This document shows, piece after piece, positions 10,160-27,603 of a DNA stretch of 32,000 bases (the stretch's first letter is position 1; every line of letters starts with the position of its first letter). The notes below the pieces were generated by a model. That model worked only from the letters and a program-made list of their open reading frames with translations. It was not told the DNA's origin and searched no databases. Source of the DNA: Verrucomicrobiota bacterium (GTDB taxonomy: Bacteria; Verrucomicrobiota; Verrucomicrobiia; Opitutales; LL51); contig CP095464.1 of the NCBI GenBank assembly GCA_021294815.2, positions 150,001 to 182,000 of the forward strand, given 5' to 3'. A program made the position numbers and the translations under genes.

Positions 10160-11406
10160 GAATACTTGCTTCTAAATCGGTATATGCTCTGGACGATTCC
10201 TTGCAAGACACAACAAACCATCATAAACGATCCGCCGTAACTAAAAAAGGGCAACGGGATCCCCGTAATGGGCATAATCCCGAGCGTCATCCCGATATTC
10301 ACGCCAATATGTACCAGGAGCATCACGCTAATACCAATCGCCAGCAGCGATCCAAAGCGATCACGCGACATGCTGGCAATTCGAAGACCATTTCCCAATA
10401 AAATCAAATACAATAGCAACACCAAAATACCGCCGAGAAATCCATGCTCTTCGGCAAATACCGAAAATACAAAATCATTTGTCGCCACTGACTGCGGGAG
10501 ATACCCAAGACGCGCCTGTGTCCCCTTTTGATGCCCCTTCCCACGAAGTCCCCCCGTCCCTACAGCAATGAGCGACTGACGTAGGTTCCAACTGACACCA
10601 ATCCCTTTGGGGTCGACAATATCGGGAGCAACAAAGGAAATAATGCGGTTGCGCTGATAATCTTTAAGCGGGAGAAAGGAAATTTTTTCGAACTGCCCCA
10701 TCGCGTTTTGGGGACTGAGGTGATTTTCGTCGAGATACAGGTGGTAGGCGTACGCATCCCAGGCAACAAATCCGATTAAAGTGAGCAGGAGGAAAAAGAT
10801 TGTTGTGAAAAATTTTCCTGGAACTCCCGACACGAAAAGTAACGCGAAGGCGATTGGAAAAAATGGCAGAGAAGATCCGAGATCTGGTTGCAACATAATT
10901 AACCCCACTGGAATGAGAAAAATCAGGCAAAAATACGCGATCGACGATAATGATTCCTTGAGGTCCCCAATCTTTGTCCGCGCTAAAATTCCTGCGCCCA
11001 TAATAAGGGTTCCAAGTTTCGCAATTTCCGAAGGTTGAATAACAACACCACATACATTCAGCCAACGCGTCGCCCCAAATTTACGCATCCCTAAGGGAGA
11101 GAAGACGAGCAATAGTGCCAAAATCCCGAAACCATAAATCCAATGGGCATGTCGCAATAATAGACGATAGTCGGTAAAGGAAATCACAAAGTACGTCAAC
11201 ATTCCAATAGCCGCCCAAACAATTTGCATCTTCCATTGTGTTCCGGAACGGTAACTCTGTGCCGATAGAATTGTCGTGACCCCGATCGCGATCAAAAAAA
11301 GCATACAACACGGCGATACGCTATCAAAACCAATGCCATGCTCTCCACGACAAAACGCGCGCCACCATAGGGTTGCACGCCACTTAAGCTCTTCAAGAAT
11401 CGACAT
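10156..11406 (-). CDS. rodA: SEDS-family peptidoglycan glycosyltransferase, RodA-like
   Basis: Polytopic membrane protein with QPDLGS, DYQRNRI, QSLIAVGTGGLRGKG..GTQ, NDFVFSVFAEEHGF and VNIGMTLGIMPITGIPLPFFSYGGS. The GGLRGKG/GTQ/VNIGM pattern resembles RodA more than FtsW, although the ddl/ftsQ context would also fit FtsW. Confidence 0.8.
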   Translation of the reverse strand: MSILEELKWRATLWWRAFCRGEHGIGFDSVSPCCMLFLIAIGVTTILSAQSYRSGTQWKMQIVWAAIGMLTYFVISFTDYRLLLRHAHWIYGFGILALLLVFSPLGMRKFGATRWLNVCGVVIQPSEIAKLGTLIMGAGILARTKIGDLKESLSSIAYFCLIFLIPVGLIMLQPDLGSSLPFFPIAFALLFVSGVPGKFFTTIFFLLLTLIGFVAWDAYAYHLYLDENHLSPQNAMGQFEKISFLPLKDYQRNRIISFVAPDIVDPKGIGVSWNLRQSLIAVGTGGLRGKGHQKGTQARLGYLPQSVATNDFVFSVFAEEHGFLGGILVLLLYLILLGNGLRIASMSRDRFGSLLAIGISVMLLVHIGVNIGMTLGIMPITGIPLPFFSYGGSFMMVCCVLQGIVQSIYRFRSKYS

Positions 11407-11410
11407 TCCG

Positions 11411-11797
11411 TCAAGACCGCATAGCGATCAAATCACTGCGGACTGAGCGTTCCCAAATGTGATCTCCGAGGGTTACGCGTACACCAGCGATGAGCTCCGG
11501 ATTTTCCTGAACGATCAGTTCCAACGGTCGTCGGTAAGTCGTTTCCAGTGAGCGATGAATAGCCTCGGTGTTGCAATCCCCTGCACATTCGATTCGGACC
11601 GTTCGTTGGCGATAAGCTTCTCCTAAAAAATATGCGTACTTCCGCAGTAGTGATCCACGGTCACGCTCAGAAAACTCTAAAATTAACCCCGCTAAAGCCC
11701 GTATTTTAGAAACGTCAAGCGCCCCTTGGGCATCAAACGACGACGACGCGAGTCGCTTTGCTAAAGCCGATATCCTTCGTTTCGAGCGCATCTTCAA
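11411..11797 (-). CDS. atpH: F-type ATP synthase delta (OSCP) subunit, unusually short
   Basis: The C-terminal ELIVQENPELIAGVRVTLGDHIWERSVRSDL matches the conserved delta/OSCP end. It sits directly after atpF. It is at most 128 aa (TTG at 11797, or ATG at 11791), versus ~177 aa in E. coli. Confidence 0.7.
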   Translation of the reverse strand: MKMRSKRRISALAKRLASSSFDAQGALDVSKIRALAGLILEFSERDRGSLLRKYAYFLGEAYRQRTVRIECAGDCNTEAIHRSLETTYRRPLELIVQENPELIAGVRVTLGDHIWERSVRSDLIAMRS

Positions 11798-12321
11798 AAC
11801 TCGACCTCGGCCATTGTACGGTAACGCCGACGTTCTTCATCCGTCATAGATTTGACCAATATCTTGGCAACAACATCTGTAACGAGCACTTTGACTTCAT
11901 CTTTGAGATCATCGACAACTTTTGCCTTCTCGGCCTGAATTGTTTGCTTTGCCGACTCGATCATCTCATGCGCGAGATGTTCCGCCTCTGTCCGCTGACG
12001 TACACTGTGTTTCTCAGCCTCAATTTTCGCATTTTCAACAATCCGACACGCCTCCGCTTTTGCCTCACTTAGGCGCTCTTCCACAGCACTATCGGCTTGC
12101 GCGAGTTTTTGCTTCATCTCATCCGCGTACTGCAACCCGTGCTCGATTTTTGACCGACGCTCGTCCATCGTCTTCAATACGGGCTTAAACGCGAAATAGT
12201 AGAGAATTCCGACGACGCACAAAAAATTGAGCGATTGGATGAGAAGTAGCTGCCAATGAACTCCAAAAGCCTTCGCGACTTCGGTTAGTACGTTGGCAAT
12301 AACTGGCATTAAACCGTACAC
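11794..12321 (-). CDS. atpF: F-type ATP synthase Fo subunit b
   Basis: Single N-terminal TM helix (WQLLLIQSLNFLCVVGILYYFAFKPVLKTMDERRSKIE) followed by a long charged helix. It lies between atpE and atpH. Confidence 0.85.
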   Translation of the reverse strand: MYGLMPVIANVLTEVAKAFGVHWQLLLIQSLNFLCVVGILYYFAFKPVLKTMDERRSKIEHGLQYADEMKQKLAQADSAVEERLSEAKAEACRIVENAKIEAEKHSVRQRTEAEHLAHEMIESAKQTIQAEKAKVVDDLKDEVKVLVTDVVAKILVKSMTDEERRRYRTMAEVEF

Positions 12322-12327
12322 GACCGA

Positions 12328-12531
12328 TTATTTCGCAAAGAAAAGTGCGTAGAACGCGACCGCCTCCGCTAACGCCATACCAACGATCGACTGCACCAAA
12401 ATCTTTCCCGATGCACCCGGATTCCGCGCAACGCCGTCCACGGCCTTGGTCCCGATGCTCGCAACGCTAAACGCCGCTGCAAAACATCCCAGCGCCCCGA
12501 CTAAACCCGTATTTGTAATTTCCAATATCAT
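12328..12531 (-). CDS. atpE: F-type ATP synthase Fo subunit c
   Basis: 67-aa two-helix hairpin with an ARNPGASG loop and the conserved carboxylate in GMALAEAVAFYAL. Confidence 0.9.
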   Translation of the reverse strand: MILEITNTGLVGALGCFAAAFSVASIGTKAVDGVARNPGASGKILVQSIVGMALAEAVAFYALFFAK

Positions 12532-12543
12532 AAAATTCCTTTC

Positions 12544-13515
12544 TCACGCCACCTGCGCGGCGCCCTCCTCTTCGTGCTTGCAGATAAGGCCGATGTATAC
12601 GGCAACCAGCAACGTAAAGACAAACGCCTGCACCACACCGACAAGGCATTCTAAAAAGTAAAACGGCAGAGGCAAGAAATATCCCAAGACATGCGCAAGA
12701 CCATTGATTGCTTGAGCACCCCAAGTCGAAACAGACGCCAACATTTGATAAAAATCCGTTCCCTGAAGCCCTCCAGAAGTCAGGAACTCACTCATTGCAT
12801 ACATGTTGTGCAAAAGATTTTCGCCTCCAAAAATGTTGCCAAATAAACGAAACGATAGCGAAACGATGCGAAAGAGAATCGATAGCGATTCGACAAGTCC
12901 AACACCGAAAAAGATGACAAACAAAAACTGATAGACGAACAAACTCACCTCACGTTTATCGGCCTTGTTGCCGAAATTGTGCTCGTAAAGGCCTCGAAAT
13001 CCAACACATTTAATGCAATAGTACAGCCAGGCTACATTGGCAATGAGCGCAAGTGCAAGTGTCGCGTTGAGATCGGCATTCATCGGGCGAAAAATCTCCC
13101 ATGACTGATCATGAACATTGAGCCAAATCGAGCCAACTCCTGGAAGCAGTCCACTTAAATTCTGAATGACAATAAAAACAAAGTATCCCAAAAGTAGCGG
13201 AAAAATTTGCCGATAGAGATCGCGTCCAACAATGGGCTCCAAAATGCCTTCCAAACCTTCGACAACACTCTCGATGCAGGCTTGCCCATTTTCCGGAATC
13301 ATCCGAATACCTCCGCGCGTCATCAACCGGATGGCCATCGCAATTGCGAGCGAAATGAATACCCCCATCAGCAAAGAGTTCGTCAAGTAAGTCCCCAACC
13401 CCTCGGTAACCGCCGATTCCGCCCGAGGCGATAACCCTTCCGCTGACAAAACTGCTGGAGAAAATAAGACCCCCGCAATCGCAACGCGTAAAATCAACTG
13501 CCACCTTGCAATCAT
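12544..13515 (-). CDS. atpB: F-type ATP synthase Fo subunit a
   Basis: Polytopic protein with the conserved LSLSFRLFGNIFGGE arginine motif and a C-terminal helix pair. It has a signal-like N-terminal extension. It is the first gene of the atp cluster. Confidence 0.88.
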   Translation of the reverse strand: MIARWQLILRVAIAGVLFSPAVLSAEGLSPRAESAVTEGLGTYLTNSLLMGVFISLAIAMAIRLMTRGGIRMIPENGQACIESVVEGLEGILEPIVGRDLYRQIFPLLLGYFVFIVIQNLSGLLPGVGSIWLNVHDQSWEIFRPMNADLNATLALALIANVAWLYYCIKCVGFRGLYEHNFGNKADKREVSLFVYQFLFVIFFGVGLVESLSILFRIVSLSFRLFGNIFGGENLLHNMYAMSEFLTSGGLQGTDFYQMLASVSTWGAQAINGLAHVLGYFLPLPFYFLECLVGVVQAFVFTLLVAVYIGLICKHEEEGAAQVA

Positions 13516-13529
13516 CAGAAACGGGTTTC

Positions 13530-13558
13530 AGTATAGCACCCACCCCACCAAAAGTCAA
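13530..13558 (-). promoter_or_regulatory. Candidate sigma70-type promoter for the atpB operon
   Basis: The minus strand reads TTGACT-N17-TATACT, near consensus, in the divergent intergenic region. The -10 element ends 14 nt upstream of the annotated atpB ATG. Confidence 0.45.
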
Positions 13559-13612
13559 AACCAAAACCGACACTTTTTCTCGTCGGCATTCAGCTGTCAC
13601 CGCCGCTGATTT

Positions 13613-14890
13613 TTGTTTACTTTTCGTTTTTTTTTGATAGAAAGCGCCGTTGTGGGTCTTTTCATTAGTTCCCGCGGTGGCGCGTACGCCTCGAAACAGA
13701 GTGGAAGTGTGCTTCTGCTTTCGATTCTGATTTGCGCGTTCATTTCTGTACTTGCTATCTTGTTTACAAAGCAGTCGCACGAGATGCTTGAGTACCGCAC
13801 GGAGATCCAAATCGATCAAAAGGCCCGTGTCGAAGCTTACTCCTTTCTGGAACTCGCTCTAACATTTTTATCAAAGAGTTGCGAATCCGACAGTGTTCCC
13901 TATCTCAACAGTAACACACGTGCATGGGAGGCTGCTAAGCACGCTAACTCCACAAAAAACGGCCTCACATTCTACAAAGAAATCGTAGCACCTGAAAACC
14001 CAAATGACGATCAGAGTATCGAAAAAGCTATAGGTGAATACATCACCCAATGTGTGACCAAAACCGCCGGCGTTGCGCTAGCTATCGGTGAGGAAGTTAA
14101 GCTCGAAAATCGCAACCTGGAAAAGCTCAAGGGGTATCTCCAGATCAAAAATGCATCCGGCAACAATGTGCCAATGATCCATCACAAAGGCACACAGGGC
14201 ACGTTTGATACTTATTATACCTTCGAGGACCTCAGTAACAAGCTCCCACTTTGTGCGGCGTTCTACAAGAAAAACAAAAATCTCATCAATGCCGCCTTGA
14301 GAAGCGTCAGTGGCGAGTACAGCAACAGTGCCGACGCGATGAGCGATTATCTGACCGCCGATCACCCAAAGACTTTCCATAACTGGAATGAAGTCCAATC
14401 CGCACTGGGAAACGTCAATGCCGCTAAGCTCGAAAGTCTGAAGCGCCTGTTTACGATCGATCGCGAAGTACTGGAACACTGCGAGAACAGAAAAGTCAAC
14501 CTCATTACTGCACACGAAAGCCTTTTAGATGTTGTTAGTAATCACCTCGGACTTATGACAAGTTTGAAGGGGCACGCACGCGATCAATCGTTGATCAAAG
14601 ACCTCGGCACCCACCCTGAGGCAAAACTCTACACCGACCAAACACAGATATTTAAGCTTGGTGTCCATGTGGTTCATAACAATGACAGTATCTTCCAGCT
14701 CCAGTGCTATGGAACCTCCGTCGGCACCGAATCGTCGGGCTCTAAAGTTAGTAAAGAGACGAAGCCCAATTGGTCGGAAAGACTTGGCGGAACCCACGAC
14801 AAGAAAGACAATAAAAAGGACACAAAAAATATCCCAGTGAAAGCATCGTCACGTTTTTGCTTTAATCTTCAATGCATCGAGGAAATTTAA
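13613..14890 (+). CDS. GspK-like minor pseudopilin (diverged)
   Basis: Prepilin-like N-terminus KQSG/SVLLLSILICAFISVLAILF without Glu+5, as in GspK. It also has a VNLITAHESLLDVV motif resembling the GspK (N)xNTA helix-hairpin region, and a C-terminal beta segment (QIFKLGVHVVHNNDSIFQLQCYG). The ORF-track start is the TTG at 13613. The GTG at 13652, preceded by AGAAAG, is a more likely start. Confidence 0.55.
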   Translation: MFTFRFFLIESAVVGLFISSRGGAYASKQSGSVLLLSILICAFISVLAILFTKQSHEMLEYRTEIQIDQKARVEAYSFLELALTFLSKSCESDSVPYLNSNTRAWEAAKHANSTKNGLTFYKEIVAPENPNDDQSIEKAIGEYITQCVTKTAGVALAIGEEVKLENRNLEKLKGYLQIKNASGNNVPMIHHKGTQGTFDTYYTFEDLSNKLPLCAAFYKKNKNLINAALRSVSGEYSNSADAMSDYLTADHPKTFHNWNEVQSALGNVNAAKLESLKRLFTIDREVLEHCENRKVNLITAHESLLDVVSNHLGLMTSLKGHARDQSLIKDLGTHPEAKLYTDQTQIFKLGVHVVHNNDSIFQLQCYGTSVGTESSGSKVSKETKPNWSERLGGTHDKKDNKKDTKNIPVKASSRFCFNLQCIEEI

Positions 14891-14895
14891 GAATT

Positions 14896-15987
14896 ATGGC
14901 CCATTTATCCGATTTATTCGCAAACTGGCAGGAGCAGCGCACGTTGCTCGACCGCGAAGAGGCTTACCTTATCCCCTGCGAGTGTTGCCTAATCAGTAGC
15001 TGCCCGCGACCGGCGGAAAAGAGCAATCCCGCGACGATCGAAGGTGAGGTATCGATTTCACTTGAGACCTCGAGCCCCTTCCCGTTGGACGATATTTTTT
15101 GGGGGTATTTTGAGAACACCACCTCTGGAAACATTCAGATTTTTTCCGCACTCAAATCTCGCATCAAAGACCTCGACACCAATGCCCTTAATGCGACTTA
15201 CCTTCTCCCCGATTGCTTTATACCGATTTTCGATCCTTCGATTAATCGAGCAATTTTGAAGCATCAAGAGCACGAAACCTTTTTTCAACGCGACGTCAAT
15301 GGAGAGCTGACCTTTAGCGAGGAGATCCCGGATCGTAGCGAGATTCCTGTTGTTGAAATTGTTGAGGTAATACCAGTGCGCGAATTTGGTCTCGTTGTCC
15401 ACTACACCTGGCGGACCAATGCCGGCAGCGATGCGTTCGAAAAAGTTCTCGAGATCCCTTACAACGACCTGCGCCTCCACGCGATCAACATGCAAGTTGG
15501 GTTATTGAAAAAAGTCACTGAAAATAACAAACGTACAGCCAATATTACGCGAATCGTTAGCGTCGCTTCGGTTGCCGTAATTTTAGCGACTGTCGGCGGT
15601 TGGTTCTTATTTAGATCCCTAGCAGGACATCAAGTACGGGTTTCACGCAAGCTCACCGCCAAGGAAAAGCAAGTGAAGAGCGTTCAAAGTAAAGATGATC
15701 GCGCCCATGAACTGGAGCTCTTTTCCGACCGCAAGCAGGCTTACTTCCGCGGTCTCGATAAAATCAACGCATTGCGACCAGAGTCGATCCTGTTTAAATC
15801 GCTGCATACCTCTGAAGGCGAGAATTTTGAAATCCGGGGCGTCGCGACCTCACTCGAAGAATCCGAGCGTTTTCAGCGGGCACTCGAAGAGTCCCAGCAG
15901 TTTAGGATCGTAAAACTTGTCAACGAAGGTCTTGACAACGAGGCCCATATCCAATTTTCCCTCTCCCTAACTTTTAGAAAATTATGA
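14896..15987 (+). CDS. Bitopic GspL-like / PilM-PilN fusion-like assembly protein (diverged)
   Basis: ~230-aa cytoplasmic domain, one TM helix (IVSVASVAVILATVGGWFLF), a coiled-coil segment, then a PilN/GspL periplasmic-like end (FEIRGVATSLEESERFQRALEESQQFRIVKLV...IQFSLSLTF). The ATG at 14896 lies 5 nt after the upstream stop. The assignment rests on architecture and context only. Confidence 0.5.
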   Translation: MAHLSDLFANWQEQRTLLDREEAYLIPCECCLISSCPRPAEKSNPATIEGEVSISLETSSPFPLDDIFWGYFENTTSGNIQIFSALKSRIKDLDTNALNATYLLPDCFIPIFDPSINRAILKHQEHETFFQRDVNGELTFSEEIPDRSEIPVVEIVEVIPVREFGLVVHYTWRTNAGSDAFEKVLEIPYNDLRLHAINMQVGLLKKVTENNKRTANITRIVSVASVAVILATVGGWFLFRSLAGHQVRVSRKLTAKEKQVKSVQSKDDRAHELELFSDRKQAYFRGLDKINALRPESILFKSLHTSEGENFEIRGVATSLEESERFQRALEESQQFRIVKLVNEGLDNEAHIQFSLSLTFRKL

Positions 15988-16613
15988 AAAAACCTTCAAC
16001 CCTCAAAACTTTTTTCTCTCTCCTCAAGCCCAGCGAAAGTATCGCCATCGCTGCCGTGCTCGGTGTTGTCGCCCTTGTGGGGATTACAATGAACGTTAAA
16101 GCTTGTAAAACCTACCGAGTGCTCAAATCCGCAAATGAGGAGAAAAACAAAGAACAAAACAGCTGGCTTAGCCGAGAAAAAGACATCGATAAACATTTCC
16201 AAGACGTAATTGATGATATTCGGAGTCGGAAACGCATCGATCGCTCGGAACTCATGACGCTCGTCCAAAATGCCGCCAAACGCTTATCGCTAAAGCACAC
16301 CATTAACGGGATCCCAGAGACCGTGAACGGGAAGTTCTTTTCGTTTAACAAGGTTTCTATCACGCTCAGCGACGCCTATTTTGCCGATATTTTGGCCTTT
16401 GATAATGCTGTCGAGATCCCCGATTACGCCCTCTGCATCGATAGCATGTCGCTCGACCTCTCGGGAGCCAAGTTACGGGCAACAATCAGCCTCTCCGCAC
16501 TCGATATTAAGGCCGACCAAGATCCCAATACCCTCGTCGCGCGGATTTTGGGCTCGTACGATCTCGACGAAAAGCTTATCATGTGGAATGGGAGTAAGGA
16601 TCTCGTCGAATGA
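15984..16613 (+). CDS. Bitopic GspM/PilO-like assembly protein (diverged)
   Basis: Short N-terminus, one TM helix (IAIAAVLGVVALVGITMNV), a charged coiled segment, then a small alpha/beta domain (VSITLSDAYFADILAFDNAVE...IDSMSLDLSGAKLRATISLSAL). It has an ATGA overlap with the upstream gene. The assignment rests on architecture and context only. Confidence 0.45.
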   Translation: MKKPSTLKTFFSLLKPSESIAIAAVLGVVALVGITMNVKACKTYRVLKSANEEKNKEQNSWLSREKDIDKHFQDVIDDIRSRKRIDRSELMTLVQNAAKRLSLKHTINGIPETVNGKFFSFNKVSITLSDAYFADILAFDNAVEIPDYALCIDSMSLDLSGAKLRATISLSALDIKADQDPNTLVARILGSYDLDEKLIMWNGSKDLVE

Positions 16614-16641
16614 AACATTTTTATAAGTAAACAATAAAGGG

Positions 16642-19398
16642 ATGGTTATGACAAAAGGAAGATACTTCGTATTAGGGCTATTTCCGCTCGCGGTTTCAGC
16701 GTCGCTTCTCTGGAACCACAATACAGCGGTCGCCGCAAATGCACCGGTAGCAACAGCATCGGCACCCGGGGCTTTACCGCCAGGTGGAGCTGGATACCCT
16801 GCGCCAGCGGATCCATATCCTCTGGAACCCGATGATGACATTGTCAATCAGCTCGTGCTAACCAACGCTGAGCCTCGTGACGTGATTGGTGTTCTCGAAA
16901 AGCTCACAGGACGGACGGCACTCGTTGAGAAACTCCCAACCTCGATTGGTAAGATTTCGATCGACATTCAAGAACCCATCACCCGATTAGAGGCGATTTC
17001 CGCCGTCGAGAGCGTATTGAGCTTGAACGGTATCGCGATCGTTGATATGGGAGAAAAATTTCTCAAAGCGGTCGATAGCAAACGGGCTATTTCACAGTCA
17101 CCAGAGATTGTTGATGATTCACTGCAGATCTATGAGCCGAATCAGCACATTTGCTCCAAGTTCTTTAAACTCAATTACCTTGATGCGAATGAATTCAACC
17201 GTCTCGTGAAGCCAATTCTAACTCCCAGCGTTTCGAATGTCGTGGTCTTTACAGCTTCCAACTCGCTCTTTATCACCGATACAATGGCCAACCTTCGGCG
17301 TGTCGAAAATCTCGTGGAGCGCACCGATACACCGATTAAAATGATCGAGGAGATCAAATTTATCCCGCTCAACAACGTTAAGGCATCGAGTGTGGTCAAA
17401 AAATTCGATCAACTCAAACGCGGGGCGTTGAAAAAATACCTTTCAAACATGACGATTGACTGCGACGATTCGAGCAATCAGTTGATTATCATTACCCCTC
17501 CTGCAAACCTCTCGATCATCGAAAATATCGCCAAACAACTCGACAATAAATGCGAGCTATTGTTGCGTTCAGAGGTGATGCGCATTAAACACGGTGATGC
17601 GAAAAAGATTACCGAAATTGTCTCTAAAATCGTCAAAGAGCAACGCTCTCGGATTGAAAAGGAGAACAAAATGGCCTTTGAACGCCAACAAGCTCAGATG
17701 ACGGCACAGGGTGCACTTGCGAATGCACTTGCTCAAGCGGCAAGCGGCTCACGAAGCAACCAGCAAATCAGCAATTCTTATAGCGAATTTATCTCGTCTC
17801 AACAGGTGCCTGGTGAAATTGGAGAGGAACAAACGGCGCAATTTTCCGCCAACCTAACACTCGAAGCTGATGAACGCAGCAATTCGATCATCGTCTACGG
17901 AACGGCCTCTGACCTCCAACAGATCCGCAATTTGATCAATAATCTCGATGTCCTCCTCGACCAGGTCCGCATCGAAGTCATCGTCGCCCAAGTTACGTAT
18001 ACGGAGGGTCAACAGTCCGGCCTCGATAGCTTTGGAGTTGATTTCAATAGAGTCAATGGCACAAAAAATGGAGGCACTACAACAGCTAAGACTGGAAGTA
18101 CAAGTGGATCGGCTGGTAGTACTAGTGATGATGGGACGGGTACAGGCGCAGTTGCTGGAACCATCGCAGCTGGAGCTAAAACTCTCCATGAAATTAACTT
18201 TAATCTTGCCCATGCAAACAAAGGAACCTTTACAGGGAGTTTAAGAAACTTTTCTCTAGACGCCGTCTTTAAAGTCGCACAATCAGACACTAATGTCAAA
18301 ATTCTCTCGACGCCGACATTGGTAACGACGCACAACCGCAAGGCAAACTTCAAGATTGGTGAAAAACGTCCATTCCTCGACTCTTCGACTAAGAGTGATA
18401 GTAAAGACGCCCAAGAGCGTATCCAGATCAAGTATGAAAATGTTGGTCTCGAGCTAAAAGTCACACCGCTTATTGGCAATAATGGTATCATCCAAATGGA
18501 AATTGAGCAAAGAATTTCCCAAAAAACTGAAAATGCTAAGATTGCATCTTTGGAATGCCCCGTCATTACAGACAAGGAAATTAATTCTTTTGTTAGTGTT
18601 GCCAACGGCGATGTCATTGTGCTTGCAGGATTTAAAGAGCGTAAGACTGACACAATGAGGGGAAAACTCTTCTTAATTGGTGATATACCCCTTATTGGAG
18701 ATCTTCTTTCCCCCAGGAAACGTGAGGAGTTAACAACGGAATTAATTATCTTCATTAAGCCGACAATTATCCTGCGGCCTCAAGATGAAGCAGCCTATCT
18801 GGATCAACAGGTTGCACGGACATCGATTAAAGAAGACATCGATTACTATAAAAAAACTGGTGGTGATTTGCTACCTTCCAAACCTTTCCCACACACTACG
18901 CTTGAAGACCCAACGAAGGGATTTTTCCCCGAGAAGGAATCTCCTCAAGGGCCTGGTTCCCATCGACAACCACATAAAGGTGTTCCGGAAACTGAACCTA
19001 TCATAGAGGAAACTCTGCCGGTCATTGAACAACCTTCACAAAAGGCAAACCCGCCTCAGGAAAAACAAAATAGCAAGAAAACGCGCCGTCAACGCCGACA
19101 CGCAGCCTCTAATACAAGGGAAAAATCCAAAAAAACCTCCAGGGATTCTTCCAAGAGCAAAACGAATCAGCATTCTCGCCGCGGACGTCACCATGAGGAA
19201 TCCGCTAATAAAGGAAAAACAGTCTCGAAATCACCTGCTGAGTCCGAAAGAGGTGCGGACAACTCGCGCAAGCGATCTCGCGGACGTCGAAGCGAACATG
19301 TTCATTCTCAGTCCAAAGTTCAAACCTCGACTCAAAAAAAATTAGACGCTGGAATGTCGAAGGCACGGGGTCGGAGAAGTAATCGTAGAGCTCAATAA
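16642..19398 (+). CDS. gspD: GspD-type secretin with a ~200-aa C-terminal extension ending in a polybasic tail
   Basis: Signal peptide, then N0 (DVIGVLEKLTGRTALVE...EAISAVESVLSLNGIAIV), then repeated N1-N3 ring-building domains (NSLFITDT, NQLIIITPP, NSIIVYGTASDLQQIRNLINNLD). The secretin core follows (RIEVIVAQV..., ILSTPTLVTTHNRKANFKIGEKRPF, GDIPLIGDLL...ELIIFIKPTII). An AAGGGA Shine-Dalgarno sequence lies upstream. Confidence 0.9.
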   Translation: MVMTKGRYFVLGLFPLAVSASLLWNHNTAVAANAPVATASAPGALPPGGAGYPAPADPYPLEPDDDIVNQLVLTNAEPRDVIGVLEKLTGRTALVEKLPTSIGKISIDIQEPITRLEAISAVESVLSLNGIAIVDMGEKFLKAVDSKRAISQSPEIVDDSLQIYEPNQHICSKFFKLNYLDANEFNRLVKPILTPSVSNVVVFTASNSLFITDTMANLRRVENLVERTDTPIKMIEEIKFIPLNNVKASSVVKKFDQLKRGALKKYLSNMTIDCDDSSNQLIIITPPANLSIIENIAKQLDNKCELLLRSEVMRIKHGDAKKITEIVSKIVKEQRSRIEKENKMAFERQQAQMTAQGALANALAQAASGSRSNQQISNSYSEFISSQQVPGEIGEEQTAQFSANLTLEADERSNSIIVYGTASDLQQIRNLINNLDVLLDQVRIEVIVAQVTYTEGQQSGLDSFGVDFNRVNGTKNGGTTTAKTGSTSGSAGSTSDDGTGTGAVAGTIAAGAKTLHEINFNLAHANKGTFTGSLRNFSLDAVFKVAQSDTNVKILSTPTLVTTHNRKANFKIGEKRPFLDSSTKSDSKDAQERIQIKYENVGLELKVTPLIGNNGIIQMEIEQRISQKTENAKIASLECPVITDKEINSFVSVANGDVIVLAGFKERKTDTMRGKLFLIGDIPLIGDLLSPRKREELTTELIIFIKPTIILRPQDEAAYLDQQVARTSIKEDIDYYKKTGGDLLPSKPFPHTTLEDPTKGFFPEKESPQGPGSHRQPHKGVPETEPIIEETLPVIEQPSQKANPPQEKQNSKKTRRQRRHAASNTREKSKKTSRDSSKSKTNQHSRRGRHHEESANKGKTVSKSPAESERGADNSRKRSRGRRSEHVHSQSKVQTSTQKKLDAGMSKARGRRSNRRAQ

Positions 19399-19419
19399 CA
19401 CGAACTAGGGGGAAGCACA

Positions 19420-20037
19420 ATGATACGTTTATTCAAGTTCATCGGTTACGGACTCCCCCTTTTGGGAGTCGCCAATGTCGTCGGAGAAACAGGTCCACAA
19501 GCAAACGTAGCCTACAGTTCACGTGGGCTGGAACAACGGTCGCCATTCGGTGATCGGAAACCTCGCTCTAAGCCAGTCATTAAGACAAGCACAGCAGCAC
19601 AAACAATACCGGTTAAAAAGCCGGAACCTCCGTTGTCGAAACGGGATTTGTCATTCGTTGGATTTTTAAGCATCAACGGCTACCGCGAGTATGTGATTCA
19701 CGAAAAAATCAAAACTGACTTCGTTTACCAAATCATTAACCAGCAATTTCCGACGCCACTCCATTATAAGGCAGGGAAGTATGATGTCCAAAATCAGACA
19801 CTGGAAGTGTTGATTGATAACGATCGGGCTCTTTGTAAACTCGGAGAATCCAAGGATAACAAGGGCGGTAGTGGTACAAGTAGCGCGAAAGTGGCTTATG
19901 GAAATAGTGATAGCAGTTCATCAAAAAACACTGCCTCCAAGGGAAATTCTAACTACTCCAAGTGGGATGACTTTTGGGACGATGATGACGACGATTTCGA
20001 CTGGCTCGATGACGACTGGGATGATTTCGACTTCTAA
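19420..20037 (+). CDS. Small exported protein, PilP/GspC-HR-like core with an extreme acidic-aromatic C-terminal tail
   Basis: Strong Shine-Dalgarno (AGGGGGAAG), then a hydrophobic N-terminus (FKFIGYGLPLLGVANVVG), a Pro/Lys linker, and a beta-rich core (LSFVGFLSINGYREYVIHEKIKTDFVYQI...LEVLIDNDRALCKLGE). An S/G/N linker leads to the tail WDDFWDDDDDDFDWLDDDWDDFDF. Coding status is well supported. The functional assignment is architectural only. Confidence 0.5.
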   Translation: MIRLFKFIGYGLPLLGVANVVGETGPQANVAYSSRGLEQRSPFGDRKPRSKPVIKTSTAAQTIPVKKPEPPLSKRDLSFVGFLSINGYREYVIHEKIKTDFVYQIINQQFPTPLHYKAGKYDVQNQTLEVLIDNDRALCKLGESKDNKGGSGTSSAKVAYGNSDSSSSKNTASKGNSNYSKWDDFWDDDDDDFDWLDDDWDDFDF

Positions 20038-20050
20038 TATGGGATGACAC

Positions 20051-21739
20051 ATGGACAATTTTTTAGATAAACTCTTCGCCTCGGTAGCACCGGATTTACC
20101 AGAGGCGATCGCGGGGCTTCACGTCGACAAAAAAATCGAACTGCTCGCGGAAAAGTTAAATGCGGATATTAACGGCGCATACGAGTGGCTGTCCAATGCG
20201 ACACAGATGCCGTTTCAGCCCAAATTCTCTGTTTCGCAAGGTGTGACGTCGATCTTGCCTGAAAAGCTCATTTTGGAGTATTCTTGCTTACCAATTGATC
20301 TGGGCGAAGGTCAAAAACAAGGGCTCGTTTTTGGCTGGCCTCCGGATGGGAATATGAAGAAATGGATTAAAGCTTCTTCAACAAAAGATTTTCAGTACTG
20401 CCTCGGACCAGCCGCGGATATTCGAAAATTCATTAACGAGCGTTTCGGTGTTGGCGCGGGAAGCTTTTTAGATGGTGCTGCCGATGGCGTTGGGCTCGTC
20501 GAAAAGAAAGAAGTTGAACAGGAGGACGAAGATGCGGTCGTGATCAAGTTCGTCAATGAGCTGATCAAACAGGCATTACGCGATCGCGCGACCGATATTC
20601 ACTTCGAGCCGCAAAAAAACTCCTTACAGATTCGCTACCGAATCGACGGTGCACTGGTTCCCGTCAGCTTACCCCCAAACCTCGTGCTTTTTCAGTCAGC
20701 GATTATCTCGCGATTGAAAATCATGGCGAAGCTCAATATTTCGGAAAAACGTCGTCCACAAGATGGACGTATCGCGTTTCGCTCCGGTGATACCTCGATC
20801 GACATCCGTGTTTCGACACTTCCGATTACCTATGGCGAGAGCATTAGCTTACGTCTACTCAATCTTGGTGAAGCGCCGGTACAACTCGAGAAAATGGGCC
20901 TTGGCGAGAAGGAATTCGATCAAGTTGTTAACGCGATTACCCGTCCTCACGGAATTGTCTTGGTGACCGGTCCCACGGGATCCGGAAAATCGACGATGTT
21001 GAACGCATGCATCCGAAAAATCGAAGACCCGGAAATCCGCATTATTACAGTCGAAGACCCAGTCGAGTACGAAATCGCGGGAATCAATCAGTGTCAGGTT
21101 CAGTCCGATATTGGGATGACGTTTGCGAGTGCATTGCGTTCGATCTTACGTCAGGACCCCGATGTCGTGATGATCGGTGAGATTCGCGATGGCGAGACCG
21201 CTGACATCGCAATCCGTGCTTCGATTACGGGACACCTTGTCTTGAGTACCCTCCATACAAATGATGCGGCCGGAGCGGTTTCCCGTCTTTGCGATATGGG
21301 GCTTGAGCCATTTCTCCTGGCCTCTTCGTTGCAACTTGTCGTTGCGCAACGTCTTGTTCGACGGATTTGTCCGCACTGCGCCACTAAAGCCAACTACACG
21401 CCGGAACAACTCGATTACGCACTTCGTGCGCTTCGTGTCCATAATCACAAAGATGAACTACAGTTTTTGGATAAGATTATGGTCGGTAAAGGGTGTGACA
21501 AGTGTAAAAACGGATTCAAGGGTCGGCTCGCGGTCCATGAAATTCTAGTCATCAGCGACAAAATCCAGCAGTGTATTATCAAAAACGCCCCGGCTCGCGA
21601 GATTCGACGGGTTGCGATTTCGGAGGGAATGCGAACACTCCAAGAATGTTCCTGGGATCACGTCAAGAAAGGCGAGACGACGCTCGACGAGGTCATGCAG
21701 TTTGCCGATAAAAACAATATGGACGACGAGGAATCGTAA
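20051..21739 (+). CDS. gspE: Type II secretion / type IV pilus assembly ATPase (GspE/PilB family)
   Basis: T2SSE_N-like N-domain, Walker A GPTGSGKST, VEDPVEY, LRQDPDVVMIGEIRD and the His box TGHLVLSTLHTN. The tetracysteine motif is CPHC...CDKC. Confidence 0.92.
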   Translation: MDNFLDKLFASVAPDLPEAIAGLHVDKKIELLAEKLNADINGAYEWLSNATQMPFQPKFSVSQGVTSILPEKLILEYSCLPIDLGEGQKQGLVFGWPPDGNMKKWIKASSTKDFQYCLGPAADIRKFINERFGVGAGSFLDGAADGVGLVEKKEVEQEDEDAVVIKFVNELIKQALRDRATDIHFEPQKNSLQIRYRIDGALVPVSLPPNLVLFQSAIISRLKIMAKLNISEKRRPQDGRIAFRSGDTSIDIRVSTLPITYGESISLRLLNLGEAPVQLEKMGLGEKEFDQVVNAITRPHGIVLVTGPTGSGKSTMLNACIRKIEDPEIRIITVEDPVEYEIAGINQCQVQSDIGMTFASALRSILRQDPDVVMIGEIRDGETADIAIRASITGHLVLSTLHTNDAAGAVSRLCDMGLEPFLLASSLQLVVAQRLVRRICPHCATKANYTPEQLDYALRALRVHNHKDELQFLDKIMVGKGCDKCKNGFKGRLAVHEILVISDKIQQCIIKNAPAREIRRVAISEGMRTLQECSWDHVKKGETTLDEVMQFADKNNMDDEES

Positions 21740-23773: not shown

Positions 23774-24592
23774 ATGGGAAATATAGACTTAAGCAATAAC
23801 ATTAGTCGTCCACGGGATGGGAGTAACATGGGGGTACGCGATGCGCTGCCGTTCGCCTCTTCGATGAGAACAAAAACGGAAATTTTTAACACTATCGAAG
23901 ACCAAATACAGAATGCCCGCGAGCAGGGAAATATGATTCCGGACGCCACGATGGATCAGCTCGTGCTCAATATCTCGGGGCGCGAAACTACTTCCGAAGA
24001 GTTACTGAAGGCAACAGAAACAACTCAAAAGTTAATCACCAGCGCTTCCCTACTTTCGGAACGTGCGCAAAATGAGCTCGTCAATACGCCTTCAAAAATT
24101 ATCCAACACAGCCATGCAAGTACCGATGTCCAGGAAAAGGGGAAGGCGCTCTACCAGGATCTCGCGGCACAGCTATCCGCACTCACTTCAGGCGAAGCAC
24201 AAAAAAAACTTCTCCAAGCAATCGATAACACTGATACCTCGGAAAAACGCCATAGCTGGCACGTCGCACTCTTTGAATCTATCGATCAAAACGCTGACCA
24301 AGGGATCGATAATATCAATGCAGTTGCTCAGCGTCCACTGATCCGCTTGATGGGCGATACGGCACAGAACCTTCCTGCGGTTTCAGCGAATGAGCAAGCC
24401 TCATTCCAACAGTCGGCGATGCATATGCTCCAAAGGGCGCAATTCCCGTATAAATTCGATGCCGATGCTTTCCGCGAGGCCCTTGTGGCTCTAGCTGCTG
24501 TCCCGGAAAATGTTCGGACAACGGAATATAGTAGGTTTCTCAAGGACGAAGAAGACCGGGCAAAAGCGTTAAACACACAAGCGGCCGAGTAA
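23774..24592 (+). CDS. Hypothetical protein, predicted helical and soluble, no recognisable family
   Basis: Uninterrupted 272-codon ORF filling the gap between the phosphohexomutase gene and pyrH. Its composition is similar to its neighbours. I see no TM segment, signal peptide or motif. The only competing ORFs are short ones in other frames. Confidence 0.55.
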   Translation: MGNIDLSNNISRPRDGSNMGVRDALPFASSMRTKTEIFNTIEDQIQNAREQGNMIPDATMDQLVLNISGRETTSEELLKATETTQKLITSASLLSERAQNELVNTPSKIIQHSHASTDVQEKGKALYQDLAAQLSALTSGEAQKKLLQAIDNTDTSEKRHSWHVALFESIDQNADQGIDNINAVAQRPLIRLMGDTAQNLPAVSANEQASFQQSAMHMLQRAQFPYKFDADAFREALVALAAVPENVRTTEYSRFLKDEEDRAKALNTQAAE

Positions 24593-26274: not shown

Positions 26275-27603
26275 TTAGAGGCACAGTGCGCCAATGAGCG
26301 CAAATCCCATCACCGGGAGATTGAAATAAATAAACGCCGGCACACAGCTATCCCAAATATGATCATGCTGTCCATCGGCATTAAGTCCTGACGTAACGCC
26401 CAACATTGTATCGGAAACCGGCGATCCCGCATCGCCCAACGCCGCCGTCGCCCCAATGAGACAAACGGTCGCTAAAGGGCTAAAACCTAGCTCGACGCAT
26501 AATGGAACACAAATCCCCGCGACAATCGGTACTGTGGAAAACGATGATCCGATACCCATGGTAATGAGGAGCCCAACGAGTAACATGCCTAAAGCACCGA
26601 GAAAAGGGCTACCGTGGACGGCTTCGGTCAACCAACTGACAAGTGCCTGCGTATCGCCTGTTGCTTGGAGTACGGCACTGAAACCCGAGGCCGCGATCAT
26701 AATAAACGCAATCAGCGACATCATTTTAAACCCCTGTGTCACGATATTGTCCGACTCATGCCACCCGACAACACCACCAAGCGTAAAGATACAAAATCCC
26801 GTCATCGCACTCGCAATGGTGTTTTCCAAAATAATTTGGACGATCAGTGTGCCTAAAATCGCCAACCCCGAAACAATGATATCCCAACGCGTACAAGGTT
26901 CTTCTTCCGTCGCATGGACAGAACGCGTTTTGTTGCGATCATAATGCCGAGGCTTCCGATAACGGTAGAGCGATAACACAAGCCCGACAACCATTCCGAA
27001 TGCCGGTAATGCCATGCCGAGAACAATTTCTTTCAGACTGACCGAAACACCGTATTGGAGTAAATTTTCACGGAGAATGCTATCTAAAAAAATGCTCCCA
27101 AAGCCATACGGAATCAGCATGTACGCAAAAATCAGACCAAAGGCTAATAAATTACTCAATAAACGGCGATCAATCTGGAGCTCGGCAAAAACTTCTAGCA
27201 AAGGTGGAATGAGAATCGGTATAAACGCAATATGGACCGGAAGTATGTTTTTCGAGGCAATGGCAATCAAACCAATAAAAACAAAAATGAGCGCTTTGAG
27301 GTGAAGTCGACGATGACTTTCTCGACTCGTAACAAAGTGAATGACTTTTTGCGATAGCCAAATGGGAACACCAGAATGCGCTACGGCTGCTGCAAAAGCA
27401 CCTAAAATCCCATAGCTTAGGGCGATATTCGCACCGCCACCGAGACCTGAAGCAAAAATCTCGAGTGTTTTGGGAACGGAAAATCCACCCAAAGTCCCCC
27501 CTAAAATCGCACCTGCTGTCAGCGCAATCACTACGTTTACCCGAAGGAGCGCAAGCCCAAGAACGCTCGCAATCGCAACGAGAACCGAATTTGTTAGAAT
27601 CAT
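26275..27603 (-). CDS. YuiF-like membrane transporter (Na+/H+ antiporter NhaC C-terminal family), paralog 1
   Basis: Polytopic 442-aa protein. LRVNVVIALT, PVHIAFIPILIPPLLEVFAELQIDRR, LITMGIGSSFSTVPI and LGDAGSPVSDTMLGVTSGLNADGQHDHIWDSCVP match what I recall of B. subtilis YuiF. The substrate is unknown. Confidence 0.85.
   Translation of the reverse strand: MILTNSVLVAIASVLGLALLRVNVVIALTAGAILGGTLGGFSVPKTLEIFASGLGGGANIALSYGILGAFAAAVAHSGVPIWLSQKVIHFVTSRESHRRLHLKALIFVFIGLIAIASKNILPVHIAFIPILIPPLLEVFAELQIDRRLLSNLLAFGLIFAYMLIPYGFGSIFLDSILRENLLQYGVSVSLKEIVLGMALPAFGMVVGLVLSLYRYRKPRHYDRNKTRSVHATEEEPCTRWDIIVSGLAILGTLIVQIILENTIASAMTGFCIFTLGGVVGWHESDNIVTQGFKMMSLIAFIMIAASGFSAVLQATGDTQALVSWLTEAVHGSPFLGALGMLLVGLLITMGIGSSFSTVPIVAGICVPLCVELGFSPLATVCLIGATAALGDAGSPVSDTMLGVTSGLNADGQHDHIWDSCVPAFIYFNLPVMGFALIGALCL

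What the first reader, a model, noticed from the sequence alone, without database searches (positions are those of the whole stretch)
13613..21739. Permuted, pilin-less type II secretion-like module (K-L-M-D-C/P-like-E) divergent from the Fo ATP synthase operon
Six tightly packed plus-strand genes, with junctions of 5, -4, 28, 21 and 13 nt, encode a clear GspD-type secretin and a clear GspE-type ATPase. The other four proteins are highly diverged and I can place them only by architecture and short motifs. They are a GspK-like minor pseudopilin, a bitopic GspL/PilM-PilN-like protein, a bitopic GspM/PilO-like protein, and a small exported PilP/GspC-like protein. Canonical T2SS operons run C-D-E-F-G-H-I-J-K-L-M. 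Here K-L-M precede D and the C/P-like gene follows D. No platform protein (GspF/PilC), pseudopilins G-J or prepilin peptidase occur anywhere in the 32 kb. The flanks are housekeeping genes (atpB, phosphohexomutase), so this is not an obvious island. Either the machine is split across the genome, or this is a reduced secretin/ATPase/alignment-complex system whose output is unknown.
Basis: partly seen in the sequence, partly recalled or inferred. Interest (0 to 1): 0.7.

Follow-up and report, generated by a model that had tools for sequence, protein, structure and literature searches.

The report
Trimmed type II secretion gene block
These six genes are the core of a type II secretion machine typical of Opitutales bacteria. 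In this small-genome gut lineage the block has lost its neighbouring pseudopilin and platform genes, so it is an interesting variant of a known system rather than a new kind of machine.

Summary
Six tightly packed + strand genes (13652-21739) lie between atpB and a phosphoglucomutase gene. The 32 kb window has no GspF, no G-J pseudopilins and no prepilin peptidase.

All six proteins can be placed:
- p4 is a GspD-type secretin and p6 is a GspE/PilB-type ATPase.
- p1 is a diverged GspK (hhalign 97.9% to relatives that pass GspK models).
- p2 is a PilM-PilN fusion, which is the GspL architecture.
- p3 is GspM (98% to Pfam-validated GspM).
- p5 is a remote GspC-like protein with only an HR-type domain (85-93%, controls at most 0.7%). 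It belongs to a large family with no Pfam model.

The "permutation" is the norm for the clade. Many Opitutales and Puniceicoccales genomes carry gspG-H-I-J-K-L-M-D-C'-E-F in this order. The window's lineage keeps only K-L-M-D-C'-E. It keeps this block in two different genomic contexts, under purifying selection similar to that on housekeeping genes.

The lineage is gut-associated, and the window's contig is 878 kb.

Most likely this is one locus of a split T2SS, with the missing parts encoded elsewhere. I could not test that. A truly reduced or repurposed machine remains possible at about 10-15%.

The parts
13516..13651 (.). Divergent intergenic region between atpB (minus strand) and gspK (plus strand); presumed promoter region of the block
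   Evidence: The ORF map places it between the two genes. The sigma-70 and terminator scan found nothing above the shuffle expectation. The same atpB|gspK junction is conserved in L001-L003 and L085.
13652..14890 (+). p1, a diverged GspK-like minor pseudopilin of 412 aa. NCBI's own gene call starts at the GTG at 13652; an upstream TTG at 13613 is also in frame.
   Evidence: It has one N-terminal hydrophobic helix (aa 13-43) after the motif KQSG|S, with no Glu at +5. hhalign of the window clade against the Opitutales family gives Prob 97.9%, E 6e-13, over aa 15-411. A member of that family, from L047, matches NF037980 GspK (E 1e-22) and Pfam T2SSK_1st (41 bits, above the 26.2 cutoff), and follows four prepilin genes. 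Direct hits for p1 itself are marginal (GspK E 0.09). dN/dS is 0.14-0.17.
14896..15987 (+). p2, a GspL-type bitopic protein of 363 aa: a cytoplasmic PilM-like domain, a transmembrane segment at about aa 215-244, and a periplasmic PilN-like domain
   Evidence: The C-terminus matches Pfam PilN at 22.4 bits, against a cutoff of 22.8. The family profile A7 searched against PDB hits PilM (3jc8_M, E 3e-14; 2ych, E 8.5e-14) with its N-terminal half, and PilN (3jc8_N, E 6.5e-9) with its C-terminal half. GspL (4pht) appears only faintly. hhalign of the window clade against other Opitutales members gives 99.7%. dN/dS is 0.03-0.04.
15984..16613 (+). p3, a GspM-type bitopic protein of 209 aa with a transmembrane segment at aa 13-41
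   Evidence: There is no direct Pfam hit. hhalign gives 98.6% to Opitutales homologues. The merged family gives 98.0%, E 1.8e-13, to seven homologues, five of which pass the Pfam T2SSM or T2SSM_b cutoffs. Opitutales members give sub-threshold T2SSM and T2SSM_b hits. The gene always follows the L gene. dN/dS is 0-0.06. A single-sequence AF2 model was unusable.
16642..19398 (+). p4, a GspD-type secretin of 918 aa
   Evidence: It matches Pfam Secretin, Secretin_N three times, and N0 weakly. NCBIfam GspD scores 320.5 bits against 175.6 for PilQ. Amuc_1098_fam scores only 39.8 bits against a cutoff of 750.
18772..19398 (+). Lineage-specific basic, low-complexity C-terminal tail of the secretin (aa 711-918)
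   Evidence: The tail has 47 K+R against 26 D+E, with pI 10.4. A basic tail is clear in W, L001 and L085 and weaker in L005 and L086, and is absent from full-cluster relatives such as L087, L016 and L047.
19420..20037 (+). p5 (called X or GspC' here), a small exported GspC-like protein of 205 aa: an N-terminal hydrophobic leader, an SPF motif, a six-stranded beta domain (aa 76-141), and an acidic Trp/Asp/Phe tail (aa 181-205)
   Evidence: There is no Pfam or PDB sequence hit. hhalign gives 96% to the protein found between D and E in other Opitutales. The family has 2528 representative clusters at E<=1e-3. AF2 with a 21-sequence alignment gives pLDDT 84-89 over aa 72-142 with six strands; the rest is disordered. 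hhalign of the deep family against a GspC set gives Prob 85-93%, E 3e-7 to 6e-6, covering the HR region and the preceding SPF/LF motif. Three members of that set pass the Pfam T2SSC cutoff. Reversed, shuffled and unrelated controls give at most 0.7%. Foldseek against PDB found nothing significant.
20051..21739 (+). p6, a GspE/PilB-family assembly ATPase of 562 aa
   Evidence: It matches T2SSE at 438 bits, GspE at 534 bits and PilB at 506 bits. The CPHC...CDKC tetracysteine motif is visible in the sequence. It is 97% identical to the L001 protein, with dN/dS 0.015.

Best explanation
The six genes are gspK, gspL, gspM, gspD, a minimal gspC-like gene and gspE. They form the central block of the type II secretion cluster that is standard in Opitutales and Puniceicoccales, which runs gspG-H-I-J-K-L-M-D-C'-E-F.

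In the window's lineage the block has been cut on both sides. The lineage is a gut-associated Opitutales clade, and the window's contig is 878 kb. The block now sits between the Fo ATP synthase genes and a phosphoglucomutase gene.

Inferred mechanism, from established T2SS knowledge:
- The GspE hexamer docks on the PilM-like cytoplasmic domain of GspL.
- GspL and GspM form the inner-membrane assembly platform.
- The HR-type beta domain of the GspC-like protein links that platform to the N0 ring of the GspD secretin.
- GspK caps a pseudopilus that pushes folded cargo through the secretin.

The platform protein GspF, pseudopilins G-J and the prepilin peptidase are needed for this. I infer, but have not shown, that they are encoded elsewhere in the genome.
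For: Identity of the parts:
- D and E are direct family matches.
- K: hhalign 97.9% to homologues that pass GspK models.
- L: PDB profile hits to PilM and PilN.
- M: 98% to validated GspM.
- C': 85-93% to validated GspC, with clean controls, and a confident six-strand beta domain.

Clade norm: the full 11-gene order is seen in L016, L020, L025, L027, L036, L041, L045, L047, L048 and L087. L047 and L087 are annotated gene by gene.

Evidence that the block is functional:
- dN/dS is 0.015-0.10 for L, M, D, C' and E, and 0.14-0.17 for K. Housekeeping neighbours give 0.014-0.09.
- The same six-gene block persists in L085, where PGM is 71% identical and K only 34%. It also persists in L005 with entirely different flanks.
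- The G|S prepilin-type junction of GspK is conserved. This implies that a prepilin peptidase is still present.

Precedent for splitting:
- In Puniceicoccaceae, the orthologous gspE sits alone among housekeeping genes.
- In Opitutaceae, the K-L-M genes lie inverted downstream of D-E-F.
- In this very window the Fo genes are not followed by F1 genes.
- A paper on the reduced-genome gut Opitutales family UBA9783 reports type IV pilus and competence genes in those genomes (PMC12306168). That the window belongs to UBA9783 is my inference.
Against: The rest of the genome could not be read. The GspF profile search listed only the top 120 of 800 hits, and none came from the 878,461-bp contig. So the presence of F, G-J and O is not shown.

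The genome is probably very small, which makes real loss more plausible than it would be in an ordinary genome.

Both flanks were lost together, and the same boundaries appear in two genomic contexts. The clade also gained new charged tails on D and C'. This hints at remodelling and not just relocation.

GspK evolves fastest, and it carries a 1-nt frameshift in one strain.

The UBA9783 paper found no secreted hydrolases, so the cargo is unknown.

The C' assignment rests on profile-profile comparison only. Foldseek gave no support.
Confidence: 0.7

Rival explanations
1. Autonomous reduced machine. The lineage has truly lost GspF, GspG-J and the peptidase. The secretin, the ATPase and the L-M-C'-K proteins work as a stripped-down conduit with a new mode of action. 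The acidic Trp/Asp tail of C' and the basic tail of the secretin might provide a new coupling between the two proteins.
For: Both flanks are missing in every member of the clade, in two genomic contexts. The contig is 878 kb, and related gut Opitutales genomes are under 1 Mbp. In W, L001 and L085, a clearly basic secretin tail co-occurs with an acidic Trp/Asp tail on C'. The pairing is weak in L005 and L086. The block is under strong purifying selection, so it is doing something.
Against: No T2SS or type IV filament machine is known to work without a platform protein and a major pilin (established knowledge; compare the survey in PMC6668835). Keeping a pseudopilin cap (GspK) with an intact prepilin-type junction makes little sense if no pseudopilus and no peptidase exist. 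Split loci are documented in sister lineages.
Confidence: 0.1
2. Same hardware, different output. In this reduced-genome gut lineage the T2SS-derived machine is used for DNA uptake or for displaying a short fibre for contact, and not for secreting enzymes. Nucleotide scavenging would suit an organism that cannot make nucleotides.
For: The paper on UBA9783 gut Opitutales reports no secreted glycoside hydrolases or proteases, no nucleotide biosynthesis, and the presence of 'type IV pili' and competence genes (PMC12306168). The secretin carries a 208-aa tail with pI 10.4 that could bind nucleic acid. p6 scores almost equally well as PilB and as GspE.
Against: That the window belongs to UBA9783 is inferred, not shown. 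In full-cluster relatives every diagnostic component is T2SS-type: T2SSG, T2SSK, T2SSM, T2SSC-like, and GspD with N0 and three N domains. No PilT-type retraction ATPase or ComEA/ComEC gene lies in the window. A role of the basic tail in DNA binding is pure speculation.
Confidence: 0.15
3. Decaying remnant. This is a non-functional leftover of the ancestral 11-gene cluster, on its way to deletion in a shrinking genome.
For: Five of the eleven ancestral cluster genes are gone from the locus. gspK has a frameshift in one strain. K and C' are the fastest-evolving genes.
Against: All six ORFs are intact in the window, L001, L005 and L085. dN/dS is 0.015-0.17, in the same range as rodA, rng, ddl and atpB. 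The block has survived divergence down to 31-34% identity for K and C'. A streamlined genome with about 90% coding density would not keep 8 kb of dead genes.
Confidence: 0.03

Closest known systems
Canonical Gsp type II secretion system (Klebsiella Pul, Vibrio Eps, Pseudomonas Xcp)
   Same: It shares a GspD secretin with N0 and N domains, a GspE ATPase with the tetracysteine motif, and a GspK minor pseudopilin without Glu5. It also shares a GspL built as a PilM-like plus PilN-like fusion, a GspM, and an HR-type GspC-like linker. Relatives add GspG, H, I, J and F.
   Different: The clade's order is G-H-I-J-K-L-M-D-C'-E-F, not C-D-E-F-G-H-I-J-K-L-M. The C-like gene follows D, is only about 200 aa, and has no PDZ or coiled-coil domain and no Pfam T2SSC hit. 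No GspN, GspS pilotin, GspA/B or GspO lies in the cluster. In the window lineage G-J and F are not in the locus. D and E score below the NCBIfam equivalog cutoffs.
Type IVa pilus alignment subcomplex PilM-PilN-PilO-PilP-PilQ
   Same: The p2 family profile matches solved PilM and PilN chains better than GspL. One validated GspM-family homologue (L072) also gives a sub-threshold PilO hit. The order cytoplasmic/bitopic, bitopic, secretin resembles pilMNO..Q.
   Different: PilM and PilN are fused into one protein. The HR/PilP-like gene comes after the secretin and is not a lipoprotein. The relatives' pilins are T2SSG/T2SSK-type. No PilT is present. The secretin is closer to GspD than to PilQ (320 against 176 bits).
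Chlamydial reduced T2SS (classed as 'generic' in Denise et al. 2019, PMC6668835)
   Same: It is a PVC-superphylum T2SS-like system with an incomplete gene set, found in host-associated bacteria with small genomes.
   Different: Chlamydiae are reported to lack the minor pilins and GspL/M. This locus keeps exactly those genes (K, L, M) and lacks F and G locally, so it is the complementary subset.
Akkermansia Amuc_1098-Amuc_1102 type IV pilus-like cluster
   Same: It is a verrucomicrobial, gut-associated secretin gene cluster with poorly annotated small partner proteins.
   Different: The secretin here scores 39.8 bits against the Amuc_1098 family model, whose cutoff is 750. None of the partners matched Amuc family models. 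It is a different system.

Membership tests
Type II secretion system (Gsp) | Outer-membrane secretin of GspD type (N0, N1-N3 and secretin domains) | tested here: met
   Secretin 121.7 bits; Secretin_N three times; N0 23.4 bits (below the 27 cutoff). GspD is the best NCBIfam model at 320.5 bits, below the 351 equivalog cutoff.
Type II secretion system (Gsp) | GspE-type assembly ATPase | tested here: met
   T2SSE 438 bits. GspE 534 bits against PilB 506 bits, both below their equivalog cutoffs, so the subtype is assigned from context.
Type II secretion system (Gsp) | Assembly-platform proteins GspL and GspM | tested here: met
   L: PDB profile hits to PilM and PilN, and hhalign 99.7% to the clade family. 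M: hhalign 98% to homologues that pass Pfam T2SSM/T2SSM_b. The window proteins themselves give no above-threshold direct hit.
Type II secretion system (Gsp) | GspC (HR domain linking the platform to the secretin N0 ring) | tested here: inconclusive
Type II secretion system (Gsp) | Minor pseudopilin GspK | tested here: met
   hhalign 97.9%, E 6e-13, to the Opitutales family. Its L047 member hits NF037980 at E 1e-22 and T2SSK_1st above the cutoff. The position after G-H-I-J in relatives agrees.
Type II secretion system (Gsp) | Inner-membrane platform protein GspF | tested here: not met
   It is absent from the 32 kb window in a six-frame HMM search and from the block in L001, L005 and L085. Whether it lies elsewhere in the genome could not be determined. 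This is 'not met' for the locus and untested for the genome.
Type II secretion system (Gsp) | Major pseudopilin GspG and minor pseudopilins H, I, J | tested here: not met
   There is no prepilin motif and no pseudopilin homologue in any frame of the window. They are present directly upstream of K in full-cluster relatives.
Type II secretion system (Gsp) | Prepilin peptidase (GspO/PilD) | not testable with these tools
   None is found among window ORFs of 120 aa or more. It is not in the cluster even in full-cluster relatives, so it is expected elsewhere. The genome is not available here.
Type IVa pilus system | Separate PilM, PilN, PilO, PilP lipoprotein and PilQ, plus the PilT retraction ATPase and PilA-type pilin | tested here: not met
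   PilM and PilN are fused. There is no lipobox in p5. There is no PilT or PilA in the window. The PilQ model scores 175.6 bits against 320.5 for GspD.
Akkermansia Amuc_1098-type pilus cluster | Secretin matching NF042912 (Amuc_1098_fam) | tested here: not met
   39.8 bits against a cutoff of 750.

The most novel reading that the evidence does not exclude
In a clade of gut Opitutales with genomes of about 0.9 Mb, the T2SS may have been remodelled. It would be a secretin, ATPase and L-M-C'-K machine that no longer uses a dedicated GspF platform or a G-J pseudopilus. Newly evolved, oppositely charged tails would couple its parts: a basic 150-200 aa tail on the secretin and a Trp/Asp/Phe acidic tail on the GspC-like protein. 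It might serve DNA or nutrient uptake, or cell-to-cell contact, instead of enzyme export.
Probability: 0.1. Interest if true: 0.7.

Novelty: new variant of a known kind. Interest (0 to 1): 0.35.

Why it matters
Three things make this worth recording.

First, it documents a T2SS layout, G-H-I-J-K-L-M-D-C'-E-F, that is standard across Opitutales and Puniceicoccales. I could not find it described in the literature.

Second, it assigns a role to a large unannotated protein family. The family has about 2,500 representative clusters and no Pfam model. It appears to be the GspC/HR-type linker of verrucomicrobial T2SSs. Automated annotation and TXSScan-type models currently miss it.

Third, it shows that a gut Opitutales lineage with a very small genome keeps 8 kb of T2SS core genes under strong purifying selection. 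A related family is reported to have no obvious secreted hydrolases. This makes the lineage a good place to ask what a T2SS does in a metabolically dependent gut bacterium. If the missing parts really are absent, it would also show how far the machine can be reduced.

Tried and rejected
- Direct Pfam, NCBIfam and PDB sequence searches with p1, p2, p3 and p5, alone or as alignments of 2-3 close sequences, gave nothing useful. The only exception was a borderline PilN hit.
- Exact-sequence look-ups of the window's GspE and of P0001 found no contig.
- A GspF profile search was meant to find a copy on the 878,461-bp contig. Only the top 120 of 800 hits were listed and all were typical Opitutales proteins, so the result is inconclusive.
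- AF2 of p3 from a single sequence failed, with pLDDT 35.
- I suspected that the roughly 650-aa gene downstream of the solo Puniceicoccaceae gspE was the same PGM as in the window. It is not.
- Homology to the Akkermansia Amuc_1098 cluster was considered and rejected.
- The promoter and terminator scan was uninformative.
- Literature searches for a published description of this gene order found none.

Full report
**Observation**

The six + strand ORFs exist as described: p1 13613/13652-14890, p2 14896-15987, p3 15984-16613, p4 16642-19398, p5 19420-20037 and p6 20051-21739. Their junctions are 5, -4, 28, 21 and 13 nt.

p4 is a secretin. It matches Pfam Secretin at 121.7 bits, Secretin_N three times, and N0 weakly. 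Its best NCBIfam model is GspD at 320.5 bits, against 175.6 for PilQ. p6 is a GspE/PilB-family ATPase, with T2SSE at 438 bits, GspE at 534 and PilB at 506. Both D and E fall below NCBI's equivalog cutoffs.

The other four proteins gave no usable direct hit. The exceptions were a borderline PilN match at the C-terminus of p2 (22.4 bits against a cutoff of 22.8) and a marginal GspK match at the N-terminus of p1 (E 0.09).

Everything else in the 32 kb is housekeeping: alaS, fabV, pfkB, kdtA, efp, ftsQ, ddl, rng, rodA, atpH-F-E-B, PGM, pyrH, frr, dciA, two nhaC genes, gltX and tadA. There are no tRNA genes and no Rfam hits. A six-frame search found nothing. That search used a GspF HMM, 40 Opitutales pseudopilins and a prepilin-motif regex.

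**Source and close relatives**

p1 is 100% identical to NCBI protein UPA28569.1, annotated 'MAG: hypothetical protein LW808_000650 [Verrucomicrobiota bacterium]', on a contig of 878,461 bp. Only two other homologues turned up among 5.8 billion clusters.

Their contigs show the identical arrangement: atpB, then K-L-M-D-X-E, then PGM. These are L001 from a Logan assembly and L002-L004 from an Opitutales MAG, GCA_029059345.1. Protein identities between the window and L001 are 65, 85, 85, 73, 60 and 97% for p1 to p6.

**Wider synteny**

I scanned one genome per GTDB species with GspE and mapped ORFs with phmmer and jackhmmer. Homologues of p1, p2, p3 and p4, a protein of about 190-240 aa, and p6 lie in this same order in many Opitutales and Opitutaceae genomes. 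Examples are L016, L020, L022, L025, L027, L036, L041-L048. There the block is preceded by three or four prepilin-motif genes and followed by a gene of about 420 aa.

I annotated L047 gene by gene:
- GspG (T2SSG 80 bits; TIGR01710 87 bits).
- GspH (E 6e-12).
- Two more N-methyl pseudopilins.
- The p1 homologue is GspK (NF037980 E 1e-22; T2SSK_1st 41 bits, above the cutoff).
- The p2 homologue gives faint PilM hits.
- The secretin is GspD (320 bits).
- The last gene is GspF (T2SSF 143 bits; TIGR02120 251 bits).

A Puniceicoccales MAG, L087, shows the same 11 genes with precomputed Pfam labels.

Variants exist. In Opitutaceae L029, L033 and L049, D-E-F is followed by inverted M-L-K. In Puniceicoccaceae L006-L023, gspE stands alone among housekeeping genes such as mutY, rpsO and pnp by sequence signature. 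A neighbour-joining tree places these solo E genes inside the cluster-type E genes, so they are orthologues. The window clade is a long-branch sister group.

**Placing the four diverged proteins**

- **p1.** hhalign of the window clade against the Opitutales GspK family gives Prob 97.9%, E 6e-13, over aa 15-411. It has a single N-terminal helix after KQSG|S and no Glu at +5. That is the GspK pattern from established knowledge.
- **p2.** A 31-sequence family profile hits solved PilM chains with its N-terminal half (3jc8_M E 3e-14; 2ych E 8.5e-14; 5eou E 4e-8). It hits PilN with its C-terminal half (3jc8_N E 6.5e-9). GspL appears only faintly. The window clade aligns to the family at 99.7%. There is a transmembrane segment at aa 215-244. 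A PilM-PilN fusion is the GspL architecture.
- **p3.** It aligns at 98.6% to Opitutales homologues. The merged family aligns at 98.0%, E 1.8e-13, to seven non-Opitutales homologues, five of which pass the Pfam T2SSM or T2SSM_b cutoffs. Opitutales members give only sub-threshold hits.
- **p5.** It aligns at 96% to the protein between D and E in other Opitutales. The family has no Pfam model and no PDB sequence match. It nevertheless has 2528 representative clusters at E<=1e-3 in a library of 1.84 billion proteins.
  - AF2 with a 21-sequence alignment predicts a six-stranded beta domain at aa 76-141 with pLDDT 84-89. The rest is disordered.
  - I then collected GspC proteins from other T2SS clusters in the fetched loci. 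Three pass the Pfam T2SSC cutoff, and one also has a PDZ domain.
  - I compared these with the deep X alignment. The result was Prob 85-93%, E 3e-7 to 6e-6. It covers the HR region and the preceding SPF/LF motif.
  - Reversed, column-shuffled and unrelated-family controls give at most 0.7%.
  - p5 is therefore best read as a minimal GspC with only an HR-type domain.

**The trimmed block**

The window, L001-L004, L085, L086 and L005 form a clade that keeps only K-L-M-D-C'-E.

L085 has the same atpB and PGM flanks at much greater divergence. PGM is 71% identical, E 84%, D 58%, M 48%, L 45%, K 34% and C' 31%. L005, a Puniceicoccales MAG, has the same six genes with the same boundaries but different flanks. 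Trigger factor lies upstream and a ClpC-like gene downstream.

dN/dS between the window and L002 or L001 is 0.03-0.04 for L, 0-0.06 for M, 0.06-0.09 for D, 0.10 for C', 0.015 for E and 0.14-0.17 for K. For PGM, atpB, rodA, rng and ddl it is 0.014-0.09. The block is therefore maintained by selection and is not decaying.

**Are F, G-J and the peptidase elsewhere?**

I could not test this directly. The genome is not in the species-representative collection. The GspF profile search returned only the top 120 of 800 hits, and none came from the 878-kb contig.

Four indirect arguments favour a split machine:
1. A pseudopilus cap protein with a conserved prepilin-type junction is retained under selection.
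2. Sister lineages already scatter T2SS genes.
3. The window itself shows another split machine, since atpB-E-F-H is followed by rodA and not by F1 genes.
4. A paper on the gut Opitutales family UBA9783, whose genomes are mostly under 1 Mbp, reports type IV pilus and competence genes in those genomes (PMC12306168). Membership of the window's organism in UBA9783 is my inference from genome size, taxonomy and gut-derived relatives.

Three points argue the other way. The genome is very small. Both flanks were lost cleanly. The clade has also gained a lineage-specific pair of charged tails, which suggests some remodelling.

**Comparison with known systems**

By component content, the full-cluster relatives are a bona fide T2SS. 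The differences from the canonical Gsp operon are these:
- The two halves of the operon are in swapped order.
- A minimal C-like gene lies after D.
- The cluster has no pilotin, GspN, GspA/B or GspO.

Denise et al. 2019 note that T2SS pilins usually sit in the middle of the locus. They also note that the chlamydial T2SS lacks the minor pilins and GspL/M (PMC6668835). The present locus is the complementary subset.

The secretin is not of the Akkermansia Amuc_1098 family.

I found no publication describing this order.

**Verdict**

This is a real and conserved feature. It is one locus of an Opitutales-type T2SS whose internal order is normal for the clade.

The locus-level absence of pilins and platform is a derived trait of a reduced-genome gut lineage. 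Most probably it reflects a split system (about 0.7). A truly reduced or repurposed machine has a minor chance (about 0.1-0.15).

I rate it a new variant of a known kind, of moderate interest.

Noticed in passing
window 18772-19398 (secretin aa 711-918) and 19960-20034 (p5 aa 181-205); also L001, L005, L085, L086: In the trimmed-block clade the GspC-like protein ends in an acidic Trp/Asp/Phe run, for example WDDFWDDDDDDFDWLDDDWDDFDF. The secretin also carries a C-terminal extension. That extension is clearly basic in the window (47 K+R, pI 10.4), L001 and L085. It is only weakly basic in L005 and L086. Full-cluster relatives (L087, L016, L047) have neither the acidic run nor the long extension. 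Their C-like proteins end in a basic 'VAEEIRRRRALRR' helix or a Q/N-rich tail. A possible electrostatic partnership between the two tails is untested.
   Followed up: partly
L002/L003 about 9414-10717 and L004 235-1538, corresponding to window about 13870: gspK of the K2L24 Opitutales strain has a 1-nt deletion in an A-run (CAAAG becomes CAAG) that splits the gene into pieces of 133 and 240 aa. It appears in three assemblies that may share the same data. Both pieces still show dN/dS of 0.14-0.17. It could be a sequencing error, phase variation or recent pseudogenisation.
   Followed up: partly
window 11411-13515 (-): The ATP synthase genes atpB-atpE-atpF-atpH are followed directly by rodA-rng-ddl-ftsQ. 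No F1 genes (alpha, gamma, beta, epsilon) lie in the window. The delta subunit is only 128 aa and matches only the C-terminal third of the OSCP model. The arrangement is conserved in L001-L003 and L085.
   Followed up: no
window 13930-14180 (p1 aa about 95-175): Compared with Opitutales GspK proteins, the window-clade GspK has an insertion of about 80 residues that hhalign leaves unaligned. The protein is 412 aa, against 331-397 aa in relatives.
   Followed up: no
window 23774-24592 (+): A 272-aa hydrophilic protein has no Pfam match and no signal peptide. It is conserved in the same position, between PGM and pyrH, in L001 and L085. Its function is unknown.
   Followed up: no
window 26275-27603 (-) and 28956-30281 (-): Two paralogous NhaC-type Na+/H+ antiporter genes flank gltX. 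L085 has only one at this position.
   Followed up: no
window against L002, genes from ddl to p5: Synonymous divergence between the window and the K2L24 strain varies about 30-fold between neighbouring genes. dS is 0.06 for gspM, 0.30 for gspL, 0.65 for gspD, 0.96 for rodA and 1.8 for rng. This suggests recombination between strains.
   Followed up: no
L006-L023 (Puniceicoccaceae, e.g. Thalassobacterium L014, Coraliomargarita L019): The orthologous gspE gene stands alone among housekeeping genes (mutY-like, rpsO, pnp). No secretin, GspF or pseudopilin lies within 10 kb. T2SS genes are therefore already dispersed in this family.
   Followed up: partly
A9 / (p5 family): The GspC-like 'X' family is large, with 2528 representative clusters at 50% identity and 1117 at E<=1e-10. 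Its members are uniformly about 180-250 aa and have no Pfam or NCBIfam model. Nearly invariant SPF residues follow the leader peptide.
   Followed up: partly
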